Shown in pieces: positions 4,169 to 6,805 of a stretch of DNA of 7,505 nt (within the stretch, counting starts at the first letter, position 1; every line of letters starts with the position of its first letter). A program made the position numbers and the translations under genes. Origin of the DNA: a virus (lineage: Duplodnaviria > Heunggongvirae > Uroviricota > Caudoviricetes); the IMG/VR virus record IMGVR_UViG_2706794493_000022. One strand, given 5' to 3'. The notes under the pieces are model-generated. The model had not been told where the DNA came from. It saw nothing but the letters and a program-made list of their open reading frames with translations, and searched no databases.

Positions 4169-4570
4169 ATGATGAGCGCCCTAGAAGTATCTATGTACAG
4201 AATCAGCAAGCTTCTTCAGGAAACTGGATGGAGCCAGGCTGAGCTTGCCCGTAGAATTGGTGTGACACAACAAACTGTTCAACAATGGGTCAGCGGTAAG
4301 GCTACACCTAAAGCCTCAAGTTTGGATAAACTGGTTGAGGTTTCAGGGCATCCATTGCATTGGTTTTTATTGCCTCCTGAAGAGTGTGAGCAAATTTTCA
4401 CCCCTGACACGATGAAAATTGGTCCTCGCCAACGCGAACTGCTCCAAGCTTTTAGTGCGTTTCCTGAGGAAGACCAAGAAAAAATGCTTCAAGAAATCAA
4501 AGACAAGAAAAAATCAATGGAAGAAACCATTGCTAGGTGGCTGGCGGCACAAAAAAGCCGCCGGGCGTGA
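4169..4570 (+). CDS. paaR: Prophage repressor / TA regulator, XRE-family HTH (DicA/PaaR-like)
   Basis: 133-aa ORF with N-terminal HTH (SQAELARRIGVTQQTVQQW) and C-terminal ELLQAFSAFPEEDQ segment resembling DicA; divergent from the Cro-like gene; directly upstream of the antitoxin/toxin pair. True start may be the internal ATG at 4193; no SD at either. Confidence 0.75.
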   Translation: MMSALEVSMYRISKLLQETGWSQAELARRIGVTQQTVQQWVSGKATPKASSLDKLVEVSGHPLHWFLLPPEECEQIFTPDTMKIGPRQRELLQAFSAFPEEDQEKMLQEIKDKKKSMEETIARWLAAQKSRRA

Positions 4571-4597: not shown

Positions 4598-4789
4598 ATG
4601 GGTACAGCCCTTTCTCCGATAGTTTCAGAATTCGAAACTACCGAACAAGAAAACAGTTACAACGAATGGTTGCGCACTAAAGTAACGTCAAGCCTTGCAG
4701 ACACTCGCCCCGCAATTCCACATGACGAGGTAATGGCTGAAATGGAAAATCTTATTGCTCAAATTGCTGTAACTAACAAGAGCGAGTAA
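4598..4789 (+). CDS. paaA: Small antitoxin of a three-gene ParE-type TA module (PaaA-like, 63 aa)
   Basis: 63-aa acidic ORF; SD GAGGAG 7 nt upstream of ATG 4598; stop overlaps the ParE start (TAATG). The 63-aa size matches PaaA2 of E. coli O157:H7 as recalled. Confidence 0.7.
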   Translation: MGTALSPIVSEFETTEQENSYNEWLRTKVTSSLADTRPAIPHDEVMAEMENLIAQIAVTNKSE

Positions 4790-5076
4790 TGTTACCCATT
4801 TTATGGCTACCGTCTGCTCGCGATGATTTGCGCCAGATCATAACTTACATCGCCAAGGAGAACCCACCGGCAGCACGTAGACTAAAAATACGCATTGAAA
4901 CATCGGTATTACCTCTATCTGAGCATCCGTACTTATATCCACCAAGCGAACGGGTTTCTGGATTGAGAGAGATCGTGACCCACCCTAACTACATAATCCT
5001 GTACAGAGTAGCTGCTTCAAGCATTGAGATTGTAAGCGTGACACATTCTCGGCGACAATTTCCCTTCTCTATCTGA
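4789..5076 (+). CDS. parE: ParE/RelE-superfamily toxin (ParE-like, 95 aa)
   Basis: Typical ParE pattern (W...A..DL..I..YIA..NP.AA ... GLREI ... YIILYRV ... IEIVSVTHSRR); translationally coupled to the antitoxin by a 1-nt overlap. Confidence 0.85.
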   Translation: MLPILWLPSARDDLRQIITYIAKENPPAARRLKIRIETSVLPLSEHPYLYPPSERVSGLREIVTHPNYIILYRVAASSIEIVSVTHSRRQFPFSI

Positions 5077-5650: not shown

Positions 5651-6040
5651 ATGGAATTTAAAGATTTACTAAAAGAAATCCAGGAAATTGCAGCACATGC
5701 ACTTCACCAACGTCTGAACGAAGTTGAATTAGAATCTGCAACGAAGAAATACATTGATAATATGGCTCGTAATGTGCGCGATGCGTTTACCGGATTGTAC
5801 TCTGTTTCGGTAACAAACAACCAGAATACTGAAGAAACTGCAAAGCGGATTGCCTCGGTGATGGGTTTTCATGTCGAGGAAAAGTATTCAAAAAAAGAAT
5901 TCTGGAAAACTACAAAAAAATTGCAGAGCGAGAACTGTCATCTCCTGCGGCAATCGCTTCTTTCTATGAGGAAAGTTATTCAGATGACACAGGATTACCG
6001 GAACTGCTCTCATTACTTGAAAAATTCGGAATTATCATGA
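5651..6040 (+). CDS. Hypothetical protein, 0-frame ORF whose C-terminal third looks out of frame (frameshifted gene)
   Basis: ATG 5651 with SD GGAG 6 nt upstream; the N-terminal ~82 aa look protein-like, but after the A7 tract (5890-5896) the 0-frame gives low-plausibility sequence while the -1 frame stays open and protein-like to 6189. Confidence 0.55.
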   Translation: MEFKDLLKEIQEIAAHALHQRLNEVELESATKKYIDNMARNVRDAFTGLYSVSVTNNQNTEETAKRIASVMGFHVEEKYSKKEFWKTTKKLQSENCHLLRQSLLSMRKVIQMTQDYRNCSHYLKNSELS

Positions 6041-6189
6041 AAGGGACTGCGTCGGCGGATTTCACATACTCAATGATGGCTGCTGATGGAGAGCCTTTTC
6101 CTCCCGAACTTAAAATAACCCCCGGCAATCATCCGATGGTAACAATAAGAGCAATAGAGAATTACTGGTTTAATCCAGTTCAACAATAG
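6037..6189 (+). CDS. -1-frame continuation / 50-aa ORF overlapping the preceding stop (ATGA)
   Basis: ATG 6037 overlaps TGA 6038-6040; the same frame is open and protein-like upstream back to 5833, suggesting it is the C-terminus of the 5651 gene rather than an independent gene. Confidence 0.35.
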   Translation: MKGTASADFTYSMMAADGEPFPPELKITPGNHPMVTIRAIENYWFNPVQQ

Positions 6190-6226
6190 TTGGTCTTTGC
6201 AATATTTTTAATGGGCCACTACGCCC

Positions 6227-6412
6227 TTAATCTCGGGCGGCGTTTAACTCTTTATTCAGTAAATCAGACTGATACTGATTTGGCTTTGTAATGATACTGT
6301 CAAGTTTTGATATATGAAATTCAACATGTTCTGGACAGTTAAAAATGTAATAACCGCCCTTCTCTAAAAAGCCAGAAAGAGCGTTACAGGCAGGGCATGG
6401 TTTGTTTGGCAT
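6227..6412 (-). CDS. Small zinc-ribbon-like protein (61 aa; CPAC...CPEH), antisense to the dicB-type operon
   Basis: ATG at 6412 preceded by SD GGAGGA 4-5 nt upstream (a second in-frame ATG at 6424 lacks one; the ORF track's 6484 start is GTG). Product MPNKPCPACNALSGFLEKGGYYIFNCPEHVEF... has a C-x2-C ... C-x2-H arrangement. Confidence 0.5.
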   Translation of the reverse strand: MPNKPCPACNALSGFLEKGGYYIFNCPEHVEFHISKLDSIITKPNQYQSDLLNKELNAARD

Positions 6413-6747
6413 TTTATCCTCCATTAAGGGCTGAATTAAAAATGGAGACCAACACGCTGCTACGTGTGGTCGTGCGCCGGACACAGATAAGAATCCGGCA
6501 CTGACAGTTTACTGAAAGGATATATCCCTGAAAAGTCAGGGCATAACACGAAAGTGCACGGCGAAGTCCTTCTCCCTTAGAGCCGTCGTTAAATTTAATT
6601 CGACCGTGCGCTTCCGGTTGTGGCAATCCGCGAAATGGCGCGGCGGTAAGTATGGCGGGGTTATTCTTTCCCCGTTGAGGACACCGGGTTGTCAGGTTGA
6701 CCATACGCTTAAGTGACAACCCCGCTGCAACGCCCTCTGTTATCAAT

Positions 6748-6805
6748 TTTCTGGTGACGTTTGGCGGTATCAGTTTTACTCCGTGACTGCTCTGCCGCCC
6801 TTTTT
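6748..6805 (+). ncRNA. dicF: DicF small RNA (ftsZ-targeting, Hfq-dependent) with intrinsic terminator
   Basis: tttctggtgacgtttggcggtatcagttttactccgtgactgctctgccgccc followed by TTTTT matches DicF of the Qin prophage as recalled; GGCGG...CCGCC stem plus U-tail; sits between the ydfB-like and dicB genes as in Qin. Confidence 0.85.

What the first reader, a model, noticed from the sequence alone, without database searches (positions are those of the whole stretch)
6227..6412. Small zinc-ribbon ORF with a strong RBS, antisense within the DicF precursor region
Between the frameshifted gene and dicF the plus strand has no plausible ORF, but the minus strand carries a 61-aa ORF with a near-ideal SD and a C-x2-C ... 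C-x2-H motif. An antisense protein gene inside the untranslated precursor of an sRNA operon is unusual; it could be a small regulator or anti-defence protein, and transcription through it would collide with the dicB-type operon.
Basis: seen in the sequence. Interest (0 to 1): 0.55.

Follow-up and report, generated by a model that had tools for sequence, protein, structure and literature searches.

The report
Truncated prophage zinc-ribbon gene ECs1061
The small antisense ORF is a real, already annotated but uncharacterised prophage gene for a zinc-ribbon protein, and the copy in this window is a nonsense-shortened, probably decaying allele, so it is a modest rather than a striking finding.

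Summary
The ORF at 6227-6412 (minus strand) is as described: 61 aa, a GGAGG Shine-Dalgarno 5 nt before the ATG, and a CPxC...CPxH motif. It is a genuine gene. RefSeq annotates it (WP_001133046.1; ECs_1061 in O157:H7 Sakai prophage Sp4) and it matches PHROG 10133, function unknown. Alleles that have diverged to 67% nucleotide identity keep the frame open with dN/dS 0.08-0.18, and all other frames carry stops. A published Sakai Ribo-seq study reports low-level transcripts and ribosome footprints. Every other allele found is 80-91 aa. This window carries one C-to-A change (TCA to TAA, position 6228) that removes 19 conserved C-terminal residues. Its other two changes from the nearest full-length allele are non-synonymous, and none is synonymous. 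The convergent, 3'-overlapping partner gene is frameshifted in the same allele. The gene is not tied to DicF. It lies outside the leader shared with K-12 Qin and also occurs in prophages without DicF. It occupies the antisense slot of the early-left operon that sieB fills in lambda and Rac. Its function is unknown, and no significant fold or family match was found. Verdict: a real, already annotated, narrow-range (Escherichia/Salmonella) prophage accessory gene, degraded here. Interest is low to moderate.

The parts
6227..6412 (-). Nonsense-truncated allele (61 aa) of a small zinc-ribbon protein gene, equal to RefSeq WP_001133046.1 and Sakai ECs_1061. Cys6, Cys9, Cys26 and His29 are the putative Zn ligands.
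   Evidence: ORF list and sequence; PGAP annotation at the same coordinates; PHROG 10133 at E=7e-48; dN/dS 0.08-0.18; invariant C/C/C/H; AF2 model with pLDDT 74.
6227..6229 (-). Premature stop codon TAA. The plus-strand T at 6228 is G in full-length alleles, so the coding-strand change is TCA (Ser62) to TAA.
   Evidence: BLASTN of the window against L020; allele table.
6170..6226 (-). Untranslated remnant of the ancestral C-terminus (GRSGPLKILQRPTIVELD plus the ancestral stop at 6172-6170). It still matches the tail of the 80-aa alleles and overlaps the 3' end of the convergent partner by 20 nt.
   Evidence: Read-through translation; P0002 and P0023 sequences.
6418..6422 (-). Shine-Dalgarno GGAGG, 5 nt before the ATG. 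AATGGAGGATAAA-ATG is identical in the E. coli O157-type and ETEC-type alleles; L020 has ATA in place of the ATG.
   Evidence: Upstream sequences of all loci. Huecker et al. S4 Table lists an SD 4 bp upstream with deltaG -6.3.
6419..6447 (.). Inverted repeat CTCCATT / AATGGAG (7 bp arms, 15-nt loop). In the minus-strand mRNA it would pair the SD. The arms are conserved while the loop differs between allele types. It could equally be a hairpin in the plus-strand operon RNA.
   Evidence: RNA fold (z = -1.6, a modest value); upstream sequence comparison. Its function is inferred.
6506..6534 (-). Weak sigma-70-like promoter candidate TTTTCA-17 nt-TAAACT (8 of 12 matches). The -35 hexamer starts 122 nt upstream of the ATG.
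   Evidence: Own relaxed scan. The position agrees with the promoter predicted 122 bp upstream (LDF 4.52) in PMC5597208 S4 Table. The stricter tool scan did not find it. It is also conserved in K-12 Qin, which lacks the ORF, and is absent in AJ1, so the evidence is weak.
5651..6189 (+). Convergent partner gene in the ydfC position, 179-186 aa when intact. Here it is frameshifted by loss of one A in the run at 5914-5920 (A8 to A7).
   Evidence: The partner's C-terminal domain travels with the zinc-ribbon gene even at 32% identity.
6164..6179 (.). Palindrome ACTGGATTAAACCAGT at the convergent junction, a weak terminator-like hairpin. It is dual-coding: WFNP in the partner and ELD-stop in the ancestral zinc-ribbon frame.
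   Evidence: Terminator scan; sequence. A terminator role is inferred.
6749..6800 (+). DicF sRNA, given for context only; it is not part of the gene module.
   Evidence: Rfam RF00039, 76.7 bits.

Best explanation
Shown. The ORF at 6227-6412 (minus strand) is a bona fide gene for a small protein of a very narrow Escherichia/Salmonella prophage family (PHROG 10133; ECs1061 in Sakai). It is transcribed from the strand opposite to the early-left (dicB-type, PL-like) operon. It converges on the gene in the ydfC position and overlaps its 3' end. This is the antisense slot that sieB occupies in lambda and Rac. Full-length alleles are 80-91 aa and under strong purifying selection. The window's allele has a single C-to-A nonsense mutation that removes the last 19 residues. 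It also has two further non-synonymous and no synonymous changes relative to its nearest full-length relative. Its partner gene is frameshifted in the same allele.

Inferred. The protein folds as a four-stranded zinc ribbon, with Cys6, Cys9, Cys26 and His29 holding one Zn. A helix follows, and full-length alleles add a flexible tail ending in a conserved RPxxVE(L/F) motif. It acts as a small binding module, not an enzyme. It can be made in the lysogen, where low-level footprints are seen in uninduced Sakai, so it is a lysogen-expressed accessory ('moron') gene. Because it is always inherited with the C-terminal domain of the partner, its most likely target is that partner protein or its mRNA. 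The 20-119 nt 3' overlap forces a sense/antisense duplex whenever both are transcribed. An exclusion-type function is also possible, as for sieB. In this window the two-gene module is most likely inactivated and decaying.

Approximate confidence: real gene and truncated allele 0.9; zinc ribbon 0.7; loss of function here 0.55; coupling to the partner 0.25.
For: Annotation and family. Selection: the window allele against ETEC-type alleles gives dN/dS 0.13-0.18 at 67% nucleotide identity, while the other five frames give 0.4-1.7 with 2-8 stops each. Two full-length sub-alleles (L026 and L029) differ by 12.7 synonymous and 4.3 non-synonymous changes, dN/dS 0.08. Invariant positions are C6 P7 C9 C26 P27 H29. 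Truncation: reading through the TAA gives GRSGPLKILQRPTIVELD, identical to the tail of P0002 and P0023, and a single base differs at 6228. The window against L029 shows 0 synonymous changes, 2 non-synonymous changes (S16L, G30V) and the nonsense change. At omega = 0.08 about 23% of changes would alter the protein, so three of three has P of about 0.01 (own calculation). Partner: it is frameshifted in every 61-aa locus and intact in every 80-91-aa locus. The window's partner differs from L029's by 1 synonymous change, 6 non-synonymous changes and 1 indel. Co-inheritance: the 48%-identical homologue P0005 has the same convergent overlap with a 135-aa protein that matches only the partner's C-terminal domain. 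Phages carrying only the partner's N-terminal domain lack the ORF. Expression: PMC5597208 S2 Table lists ECs1061 in LB with RPKM 12.2 (RNA) and 68.2 (Ribo-seq), RCV 5.58, coverage 0.51, and in BHI with 33.8, 30.8, 1.04 and 0.69. It is one of the 250 shortest annotated genes with RCV of at least 0.25. Slot analogy: Rac sieB lies antisense between ydaF (DUF1391, a homologue of ydfA) and kilS/kilR, and lambda sieB lies antisense abutting N. Structure: the AF2 model has pLDDT 74, strands 7-9, 16-22, 25-30 and 34-39 flanking the two knuckles, a helix at 50-66 and a low-confidence tail.
Against: The truncated allele is 100% identical across hundreds of complete genomes, including some not labelled O157. 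It keeps the whole predicted ribbon and helix and still shows ribosome footprints, so it may remain functional. The 61-aa loci are effectively one clonal allele, so the pairing of a broken partner with a broken ORF is a single evolutionary observation. The Ribo-seq read counts are very small (9 and 19 mean counts in S7 Table). No promoter passed the standard scan. Zinc binding, the partner interaction and any phenotype are untested. No structural or family match supports a function. Co-inheritance with the partner's C-terminal domain could simply reflect physical adjacency and overlap.
Confidence: 0.6

Rival explanations
1. The 61-aa protein in this window is fully functional as a small regulator or anti-defence/exclusion factor. 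The lost tail would then be dispensable.
For: The truncation leaves the entire predicted zinc ribbon and most of the helix, and the missing residues have low model confidence. The SD and ATG are intact. Footprints were detected in Sakai. The allele is maintained at 100% identity in 386 complete genomes.
Against: The tail motif RPxxVE(L/F) is conserved down to 48% identity, so it is probably needed. All three changes on the window's lineage alter the protein, and two of them hit positions that are otherwise conserved (S16, and the G after the His). The partner gene is frameshifted. The high identity across O157 genomes reflects clonality. There is no PADLOC hit.
Confidence: 0.3
2. The main function lies in the transcript, not the protein. 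Convergent antisense transcription from this unit would dampen the early-left operon (partner gene, dicF, dicB) through transcriptional interference or RNase III cleavage of the 3'-overlap duplex.
For: The orientation is convergent with a 20-119 nt overlap in all alleles. A minus-strand transcript was detected in the lysogen.
Against: The strong codon-level purifying selection (dN/dS 0.08-0.18) and the invariant Cys/His positions cannot be explained by an RNA-only role. The transcript level is very low. The two roles are not mutually exclusive.
Confidence: 0.1
3. It is a chance ORF, conserved only because the plus-strand dicBF operon RNA is conserved. The annotation and footprints would then be artefacts.
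For: ORFs of 60-110 aa are common in this window. A 110-aa minus-strand ORF also overlaps the conserved dicF leader at 6414-6746. Ribo-seq read counts are low.
Against: The segment is less conserved at the nucleotide level (67%) than the adjoining leader, yet it keeps an 80-codon frame open. Synonymous sites are near saturation (pS 0.64-0.70) while pN is 0.21-0.24, and every other frame has stops. A homologue at 48% identity sits in a prophage with no DicF. The SD is conserved.
Confidence: 0.03

Closest known systems
SieB (superinfection exclusion protein B) of phage lambda and the Rac prophage
   Same: Same genomic slot and orientation. SieB is a single gene embedded antisense in the early-left (PL) operon. 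It converges on and abuts or overlaps the 3' end of a promoter-proximal operon gene: N in lambda, and ydaF (DUF1391, a ydfA homologue) in Rac. In Rac it lies upstream of an sRNA plus FtsZ-inhibitor pair (kilS/kilR, compare dicF/dicB). By established knowledge, sieB is expressed from the prophage.
   Different: There is no sequence relationship: no Pfam SieB hit appeared. SieB is about 160-190 aa, whereas this protein is a 61-80 aa zinc ribbon. An exclusion function has not been tested here.
PHROG 10133 / RefSeq WP_001133046.1 / ECs_1061 (hypothetical protein of O157:H7 Sakai prophage Sp4)
   Same: This is the same gene. The coordinates and sequence are identical to the RefSeq annotation, and the HMM match is full length.
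   Different: The database entries carry no function. They also do not record that the O157 allele is a truncated form of an 80-aa protein.
Small prophage zinc-binding proteins of E. coli K-12: YdaE (Rac) and YnfU (Qin)
   Same: Both are small (56 aa) Cys-rich putative zinc-binding proteins encoded in lambdoid cryptic prophages.
   Different: BLASTP shows no similarity: nothing for YdaE, and only a 7-residue CPxCN match for YnfU at E=0.08. YdaE is co-oriented with its operon and YnfU lies in the late region.
Generic zinc-ribbon domains (e.g. Pfam PF13453 Zn_ribbon_TFIIB)
   Same: Two CPxC / CPxH knuckles about 16 residues apart, flanked by beta-strands.

Membership tests
PHROG 10133 (uncharacterised phage protein family) | Full-length match to the family HMM | tested here: met
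   E=7.3e-48, residues 1-61 on profile positions 5-65 of 65. The 48%-identical P0005 also matches at E=2.7e-15.
Zinc-ribbon fold | Two metal-binding knuckles (CxxC / CxxC or CxxH) conserved across homologues | tested here: met
   C6, P7, C9, C26, P27 and H29 are invariant in all alleles down to 48% identity.
Zinc-ribbon fold | Knuckles located at beta-hairpin turns of a small antiparallel sheet | tested here: inconclusive
   The AF2 model (4-sequence alignment, pLDDT 74) places strands 7-9, 16-22, 25-30 and 34-39 around the knuckles. No PDB or BFVD structure matches significantly.
Zinc-ribbon fold | Binds Zn(II) | not testable with these tools
   This needs metal analysis of purified protein.
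Pfam Zn_ribbon_TFIIB (PF13453) | Score at or above the gathering threshold (22 bits) | tested here: not met
   14.7 bits for the 80-aa allele and no hit for the window's 61-aa allele.
SieB superinfection exclusion | Gene embedded antisense in the early-left operon, convergent with a promoter-proximal operon gene | tested here: met
   The window layout compared with Rac and lambda.
SieB superinfection exclusion | Sequence homology to SieB | tested here: not met
   No Pfam, NCBIfam or PADLOC hit of any kind for the 61-aa or 80-aa proteins. The sizes also differ: 61-80 aa against 162-184 aa.
SieB superinfection exclusion | Excludes or aborts superinfecting phage | not testable with these tools
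   This needs plaque assays.
dicBF operon / DicF precursor element | Lies within the leader conserved with the K-12 Qin ydfC-dicF spacer and co-occurs with DicF | tested here: not met
   Homology with Qin begins at about 6445, just outside the ORF. Loci carrying the ORF often have no Rfam DicF hit: L002, L003, L004, L014, L015, L021, L022, L026, L027, L028, L030 and L031.
K-12 prophage zinc-binding small proteins YdaE / YnfU | Sequence similarity | tested here: not met
   BLASTP gives no alignment with YdaE and only 4 of 7 residues with YnfU at E=0.08.
Known anti-phage defence systems (PADLOC-DB v2) | HMM match of the ORF or of its neighbours | tested here: not met
   No hits for the 61-aa, 80-aa and 91-aa proteins, the 135-aa partner or the upstream 204-aa gene. 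The 186-aa partner gives only a chance-level Cas11a match at E=0.013.

The most novel reading that the evidence does not exclude
The 80-aa zinc-ribbon protein and the C-terminal domain of the convergent gene in the ydfC position may form a previously undescribed two-gene prophage module. One version is a lysogen-expressed small protein that neutralises or controls an early-operon product. Another is a new exclusion function in the sieB slot. In this reading the module has been inactivated by a double hit (nonsense plus frameshift) in the O157:H7 lineage. A second zinc-ribbon gene (PHROG 1244 type) recurs directly upstream on the same strand in two unrelated allele backgrounds, which would make this antisense slot a small hotspot for accessory genes.
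Probability: 0.2. Interest if true: 0.55.

Novelty: new member of a known kind. Interest (0 to 1): 0.27.

Why it matters
If the module has a function, it would add a member to the set of prophage genes expressed against the grain of the early-left operon, such as sieB. Such genes often mediate phage exclusion or prophage-host cross-talk. It would also give a first functional handle on the unknown gene in the ydfC position of dicBF-type operons in pathogenic E. coli. For annotation, the useful result is more modest. ECs1061 and its orthologues should be flagged as a C-terminally truncated allele of an 80-aa protein, next to a frameshifted neighbour, in O157:H7-type prophages. The long 135-199 aa calls in other strains appear to be N-terminal over-extensions. 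The finding does not change the picture of DicF biogenesis.

Tried and rejected
(1) Pfam, NCBIfam and PADLOC scans of the 61-aa, 80-aa and 91-aa proteins gave nothing above threshold.

(2) A PDB sequence-profile search gave only a chance-level match to a POGZ zinc finger at E=0.035.

(4) Distant-homologue searches were run. phmmer over 1.84 billion representatives found only one true additional cluster (P0005) plus two repeat-protein artefacts (P0003, P0004), which I judged spurious from their repetitive sequences. A profile search of 5.8 billion proteins found 5 clusters in all. The scan of GTDB species-representative genomes found none. tblastn against 50,697 phage genomes found none. The family is genuinely narrow.

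(5) Homology of the ORF to the C-terminal zinc ribbon of the upstream PHROG 1244-type protein was rejected. Only a 9-residue EH-EFHIS match appeared.

(6) Similarity to YdaE and YnfU was rejected.

(7) The idea that the ORF belongs to the DicF precursor was rejected on synteny.

(8) The standard promoter and terminator scan found no promoter upstream of the ORF. It found only a weak terminator-like hairpin at the convergent junction. A relaxed scan gave one 8-of-12 candidate.

(9) Literature searches for WP_001133046, ECs1061 and NP_309088 in main texts returned nothing. The dicBF papers do not mention an antisense ORF. The only data found were in the supplementary tables of PMC5597208.

(11) The pairwise dN/dS values involving L021 are from ungapped comparison across a 1-residue indel, and I disregarded them.

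Full report
OBSERVATION. The minus strand of the window carries an ATG at 6412 and a TAA at 6229-6227. The product is 61 aa: MPNKPCPACNALSGFLEKGGYYIFNCPEHVEFHISKLDSIITKPNQYQSDLLNKELNAARD. GGAGG lies 5 nt upstream of the ATG, and the motif is CPAC-x16-CPEH. The plus strand between the upstream gene (which ends at 6189) and DicF has only 33-36 aa ORFs. DicF itself lies at 6749-6800 (Rfam RF00039, 76.7 bits). The description is therefore accurate. An ORF of this size is not remarkable alone, because the window has 82 ORFs of at least 30 aa. The case rests on comparison with relatives.

IDENTITY. The window is 100% identical to O157:H7-type E. coli chromosomes. RefSeq/PGAP annotates exactly this ORF as the hypothetical protein WP_001133046.1. 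In O157:H7 Sakai it is ECs_1061 (NP_309088.1) in the lambda-like prophage Sp4. It matches PHROG 10133 (unknown function) over its full length at E=7e-48. It has no Pfam, NCBIfam or PADLOC match. The gene is therefore already in the databases, but it is uncharacterised. I found no mention of it in the main text of any paper. The dicBF literature describes this stretch only as a long untranslated region.

IT IS A REAL GENE. Complete E. coli genomes hold 386 copies at 99% identity or more, one at 90-95% and 24 at 60-80%. The diverged copies (ETEC4071, AJ1 and 52F4; IMG/VR loci L014-L019) keep the frame open for 80 codons. Against them the window's frame gives pS 0.64-0.71, pN 0.21-0.24 and dN/dS 0.13-0.18. 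The other five frames give 0.4-1.7 and contain 2-8 stops each. Two full-length sub-alleles that are not saturated (L026 and L029) differ by 12.7 synonymous and 4.3 non-synonymous changes, dN/dS 0.08. A 91-aa homologue at 48% identity (P0005) was found in an enterobacterial prophage that does not match E. coli genomes closely. Across all of these, C6, P7, C9, C26, P27 and H29 are invariant. The sequence AATGGAGGATAAA-ATG is identical in all the E. coli O157-type and ETEC-type alleles except L020, which has ATA in place of the ATG. The distant homologue has its own AAGGA Shine-Dalgarno.

The family is very narrow. It forms five 90%-identity clusters among 5.8 billion proteins, from Escherichia and a few Salmonella. 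It has no match in 50,697 phage genomes and none in the GTDB species representatives.

EXPRESSION. Huecker et al. 2017 (PMC5597208) used ECs1061 as one of their 250 shortest annotated Sakai genes with a ribosome-coverage value (RCV) of at least 0.25. Their strand-specific data give the following values.
- LB: RPKM 12.2 (RNA) and 68.2 (Ribo-seq), RCV 5.58, coverage 0.51.
- BHI: 33.8, 30.8, 1.04 and 0.69.
- Cold/osmotic stress: 9.6, 0.7, 0.07 and 0.10.

They predicted a sigma-70 promoter 122 bp upstream (LDF 4.52), an SD 4 bp upstream (deltaG -6.3) and no terminator. My relaxed scan finds TTTTCA-17-TAAACT at 6534-6506, whose -35 hexamer starts exactly 122 nt upstream. The stricter tool scan misses it. 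The element is also conserved in K-12 Qin, which lacks the ORF, and it is absent in AJ1. It is therefore weak evidence. The read counts are small, with means of 9 and 19.

THE WINDOW'S COPY IS A TRUNCATED ALLELE. Every other allele is 80-91 aa. Translating through the window's TAA gives GRSGPLKILQRPTIVELD followed by a stop at 6172-6170. This is identical to the tail of the 95-96%-identical full-length proteins P0002 and P0023. Alignment with L020 shows a single base difference at 6228, plus-strand T against G, which is TCA (Ser62) to TAA on the coding strand. Relative to its nearest full-length relative (L029), the window allele has no synonymous change. It has two non-synonymous changes (S16L, and G30V next to the His ligand) plus the nonsense change. 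With omega about 0.08, three protein-altering changes out of three has P of about 0.01 (own calculation). This indicates relaxed constraint on this lineage. The lost tail carries an RPxxVE(L/F) motif that is conserved to 48% identity.

THE NEIGHBOUR IS BROKEN TOO. The plus-strand gene in the ydfC position (5651-6189) is 179-186 aa when intact. In the window it is frameshifted by loss of one A from an A8 run at 5914-5920. It also has 1 synonymous and 6 non-synonymous differences from L029. In my sample, every locus with the 61-aa ORF has the frameshifted partner. Every locus with an 80-91-aa ORF has an intact partner. The 61-aa loci are essentially one clonal allele, so this counts as one evolutionary observation.

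CONTEXT: NOT A DicF FEATURE. Homology between the window and the K-12 Qin ydfC-dicF spacer begins at about 6445, just beyond the ORF's start. K-12 has a different, 72-aa ydfC and no such ORF. Among loci that carry the ORF, only the window type and L029 have an Rfam DicF hit. L028 and L031 instead carry a C4/isrK-antirepressor module, and L021 and L022 have neither. What does travel with the ORF is the C-terminal domain of the convergent partner. The 135-aa partner of P0005 aligns only to residues 64-174 of the 186-aa protein, at 32% identity. The partner's N-terminal domain is widespread in Stx and other phages that lack the ORF. The two genes converge and overlap by 20, 44 or 119 nt. The module sits in prophages with different immunity regions and integrases.

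CONTEXT: THE sieB SLOT. In Rac the early-left operon reads racR, ydaG, ydaF (DUF1391, like ydfA), kilS sRNA, kilR and onward. The gene sieB lies antisense between ydaF and kilS and overlaps ydaF's 3' end. In lambda, sieB lies antisense between ral and N and abuts N's stop. The present ORF has the same placement: antisense, convergent on a promoter-proximal operon gene, and upstream of an sRNA plus cell-division-inhibitor pair. An antisense protein gene here is therefore a known architectural theme of lambdoid prophages, not an oddity. In two loci with different ORF allele types (AJ1/L003 and L027), a second, co-oriented gene lies directly upstream of the ORF. It is 172-204 aa, with a coiled coil plus a C-terminal zinc ribbon, and it matches PHROG 1244. 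The two copies are only 34% identical to each other. This suggests the slot repeatedly accepts accessory genes. GC content is about 0.39 over the ORF and partner, against 0.52-0.56 over the dicF leader.

STRUCTURE AND FUNCTION. AF2 was run on the full-length P0002 with a shallow 4-sequence alignment. It gives pLDDT 74 and pTM 0.57. Strands at 7-9, 16-22, 25-30 and 34-39 bracket the CPxC and CPxH knuckles. A helix spans 50-66 and the tail has low confidence. This is consistent with a zinc ribbon followed by a helix. No PDB or BFVD structure matches significantly, and the Pfam zinc-ribbon match is below threshold. There is no similarity to the K-12 prophage zinc proteins YdaE and YnfU. Function therefore cannot be read from homology.

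A 7-bp inverted repeat (6419-6425 and 6441-6447) would pair the SD in the minus-strand mRNA. Its arms are conserved while its loop diverges between alleles. It could equally act in the plus-strand operon RNA, and the folding z-score is only -1.6.

MOST LIKELY MECHANISM. These points are shown: it is an independent, translated small gene on the strand opposite the early-left operon; it is under purifying selection in its full-length form; and it is truncated here, together with its frameshifted partner. These points are inferred: it is a Zn-stabilised binding module made in the lysogen as a moron-type accessory gene; it acts on the convergent partner (protein or mRNA) or as an exclusion factor in the sieB slot; and in this O157-type prophage the module is probably non-functional and decaying.

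The main rival is that the 61-aa form is still active. It keeps the ribbon and helix, it is translated, and it is widespread. An RNA-only role and a chance ORF are both disfavoured by the codon-level selection.

VERDICT. The gene is already annotated, though uncharacterised. Its orientation has clear precedent, and it is not tied to DicF. This window's copy is a degraded allele. Interest is low to moderate. The best novel possibility is an undescribed two-gene module in the sieB slot, at about 20% probability.

Noticed in passing
window 5651-6189 (+), A-run at 5914-5920: The gene in the ydfC position is split into 129-aa and 50-aa ORFs by loss of one A from an A8 homopolymer. Intact versions are 179-186 aa. 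It has two domains. The N-terminal domain (PHROG 2151/1363 type) is widespread in Stx phages. The C-terminal domain occurs only next to the zinc-ribbon ORF. One RefSeq record names an intact copy 'RNA-binding protein', but no Pfam or NCBIfam model supports that name.
   Followed up: partly
L003 4275-4889 (-) and L027 3285-3803 (+): A 172-204 aa protein with a coiled coil and a C-terminal CPxC...CxxC zinc ribbon (PHROG 1244, unknown function) lies directly upstream of the small ORF and co-oriented with it. It occurs in two different allele backgrounds, and the two copies are only 34% identical. This may be a second accessory gene of the same antisense slot.
   Followed up: partly
window 6414-6746 (-); L002 3907-4476 (-): A 110-aa minus-strand ORF runs antisense through the conserved, GC-rich dicF leader. 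In ETEC-type loci it is in frame with the zinc-ribbon ORF. As a result, PGAP and others annotate 135-, 189- and 199-aa versions (e.g. WP_236505374.1). The conserved SD and ATG at the 80-aa start, and the broken upstream frame in other alleles, suggest these are N-terminal over-extensions.
   Followed up: partly
L002 about 4480-4530, L004 about 4480-4530 (aligned to window 6749-6805): ETEC-type prophages keep the dicF leader and a terminator-like hairpin (TTTTGGCGGCATCAGTTTCATTGCTGGCTGATGTCCGCCCTTTTT). They lack the 5' part of DicF (TTTCTGGTGACG) and give no Rfam DicF hit. This may be a diverged or seed-swapped DicF-like sRNA.
   Followed up: no
L028 3178-3366 (-), L031 3194-3382 (-): In some prophages that carry the full-length ORF, the place of dicF is taken by a C4 antisense RNA plus isrK RNA upstream of a Phage_ASH/pRha antirepressor-type gene, a P1/P7 immI-like module.
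   Followed up: no
window 4598-5076 (+): A RelB/RelE-family toxin-antitoxin pair (63 aa and 95 aa) is inserted between the repressor gene and the ydfA homologue, within the early-left operon region.
   Followed up: no
window 6419-6447: An inverted repeat CTCCATT / AATGGAG overlaps the SD of the small ORF. Its arms are conserved and its loop is variable among alleles. It could sequester the SD in the minus-strand mRNA, or form a hairpin in the plus-strand operon RNA at the module junction.
   Followed up: partly
L021 6468-6541: A 74-nt element in the otherwise non-E. coli-like prophage L021 matches 869 E. coli genomes at about 92% identity. It lies between the partner gene and the next gene, and may be a conserved regulatory or operator/nut-type site.
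   Followed up: no
PMC5597208 S2 Table (Sakai ECs1058, ECs1059): The dicB and ydfD homologues of Sp4 show RNA and Ribo-seq RPKM of about 40-80 in uninduced LB cultures, so the operon does not look fully silent. Multi-mapping among the several dicB copies of O157 could inflate these values.
   Followed up: no
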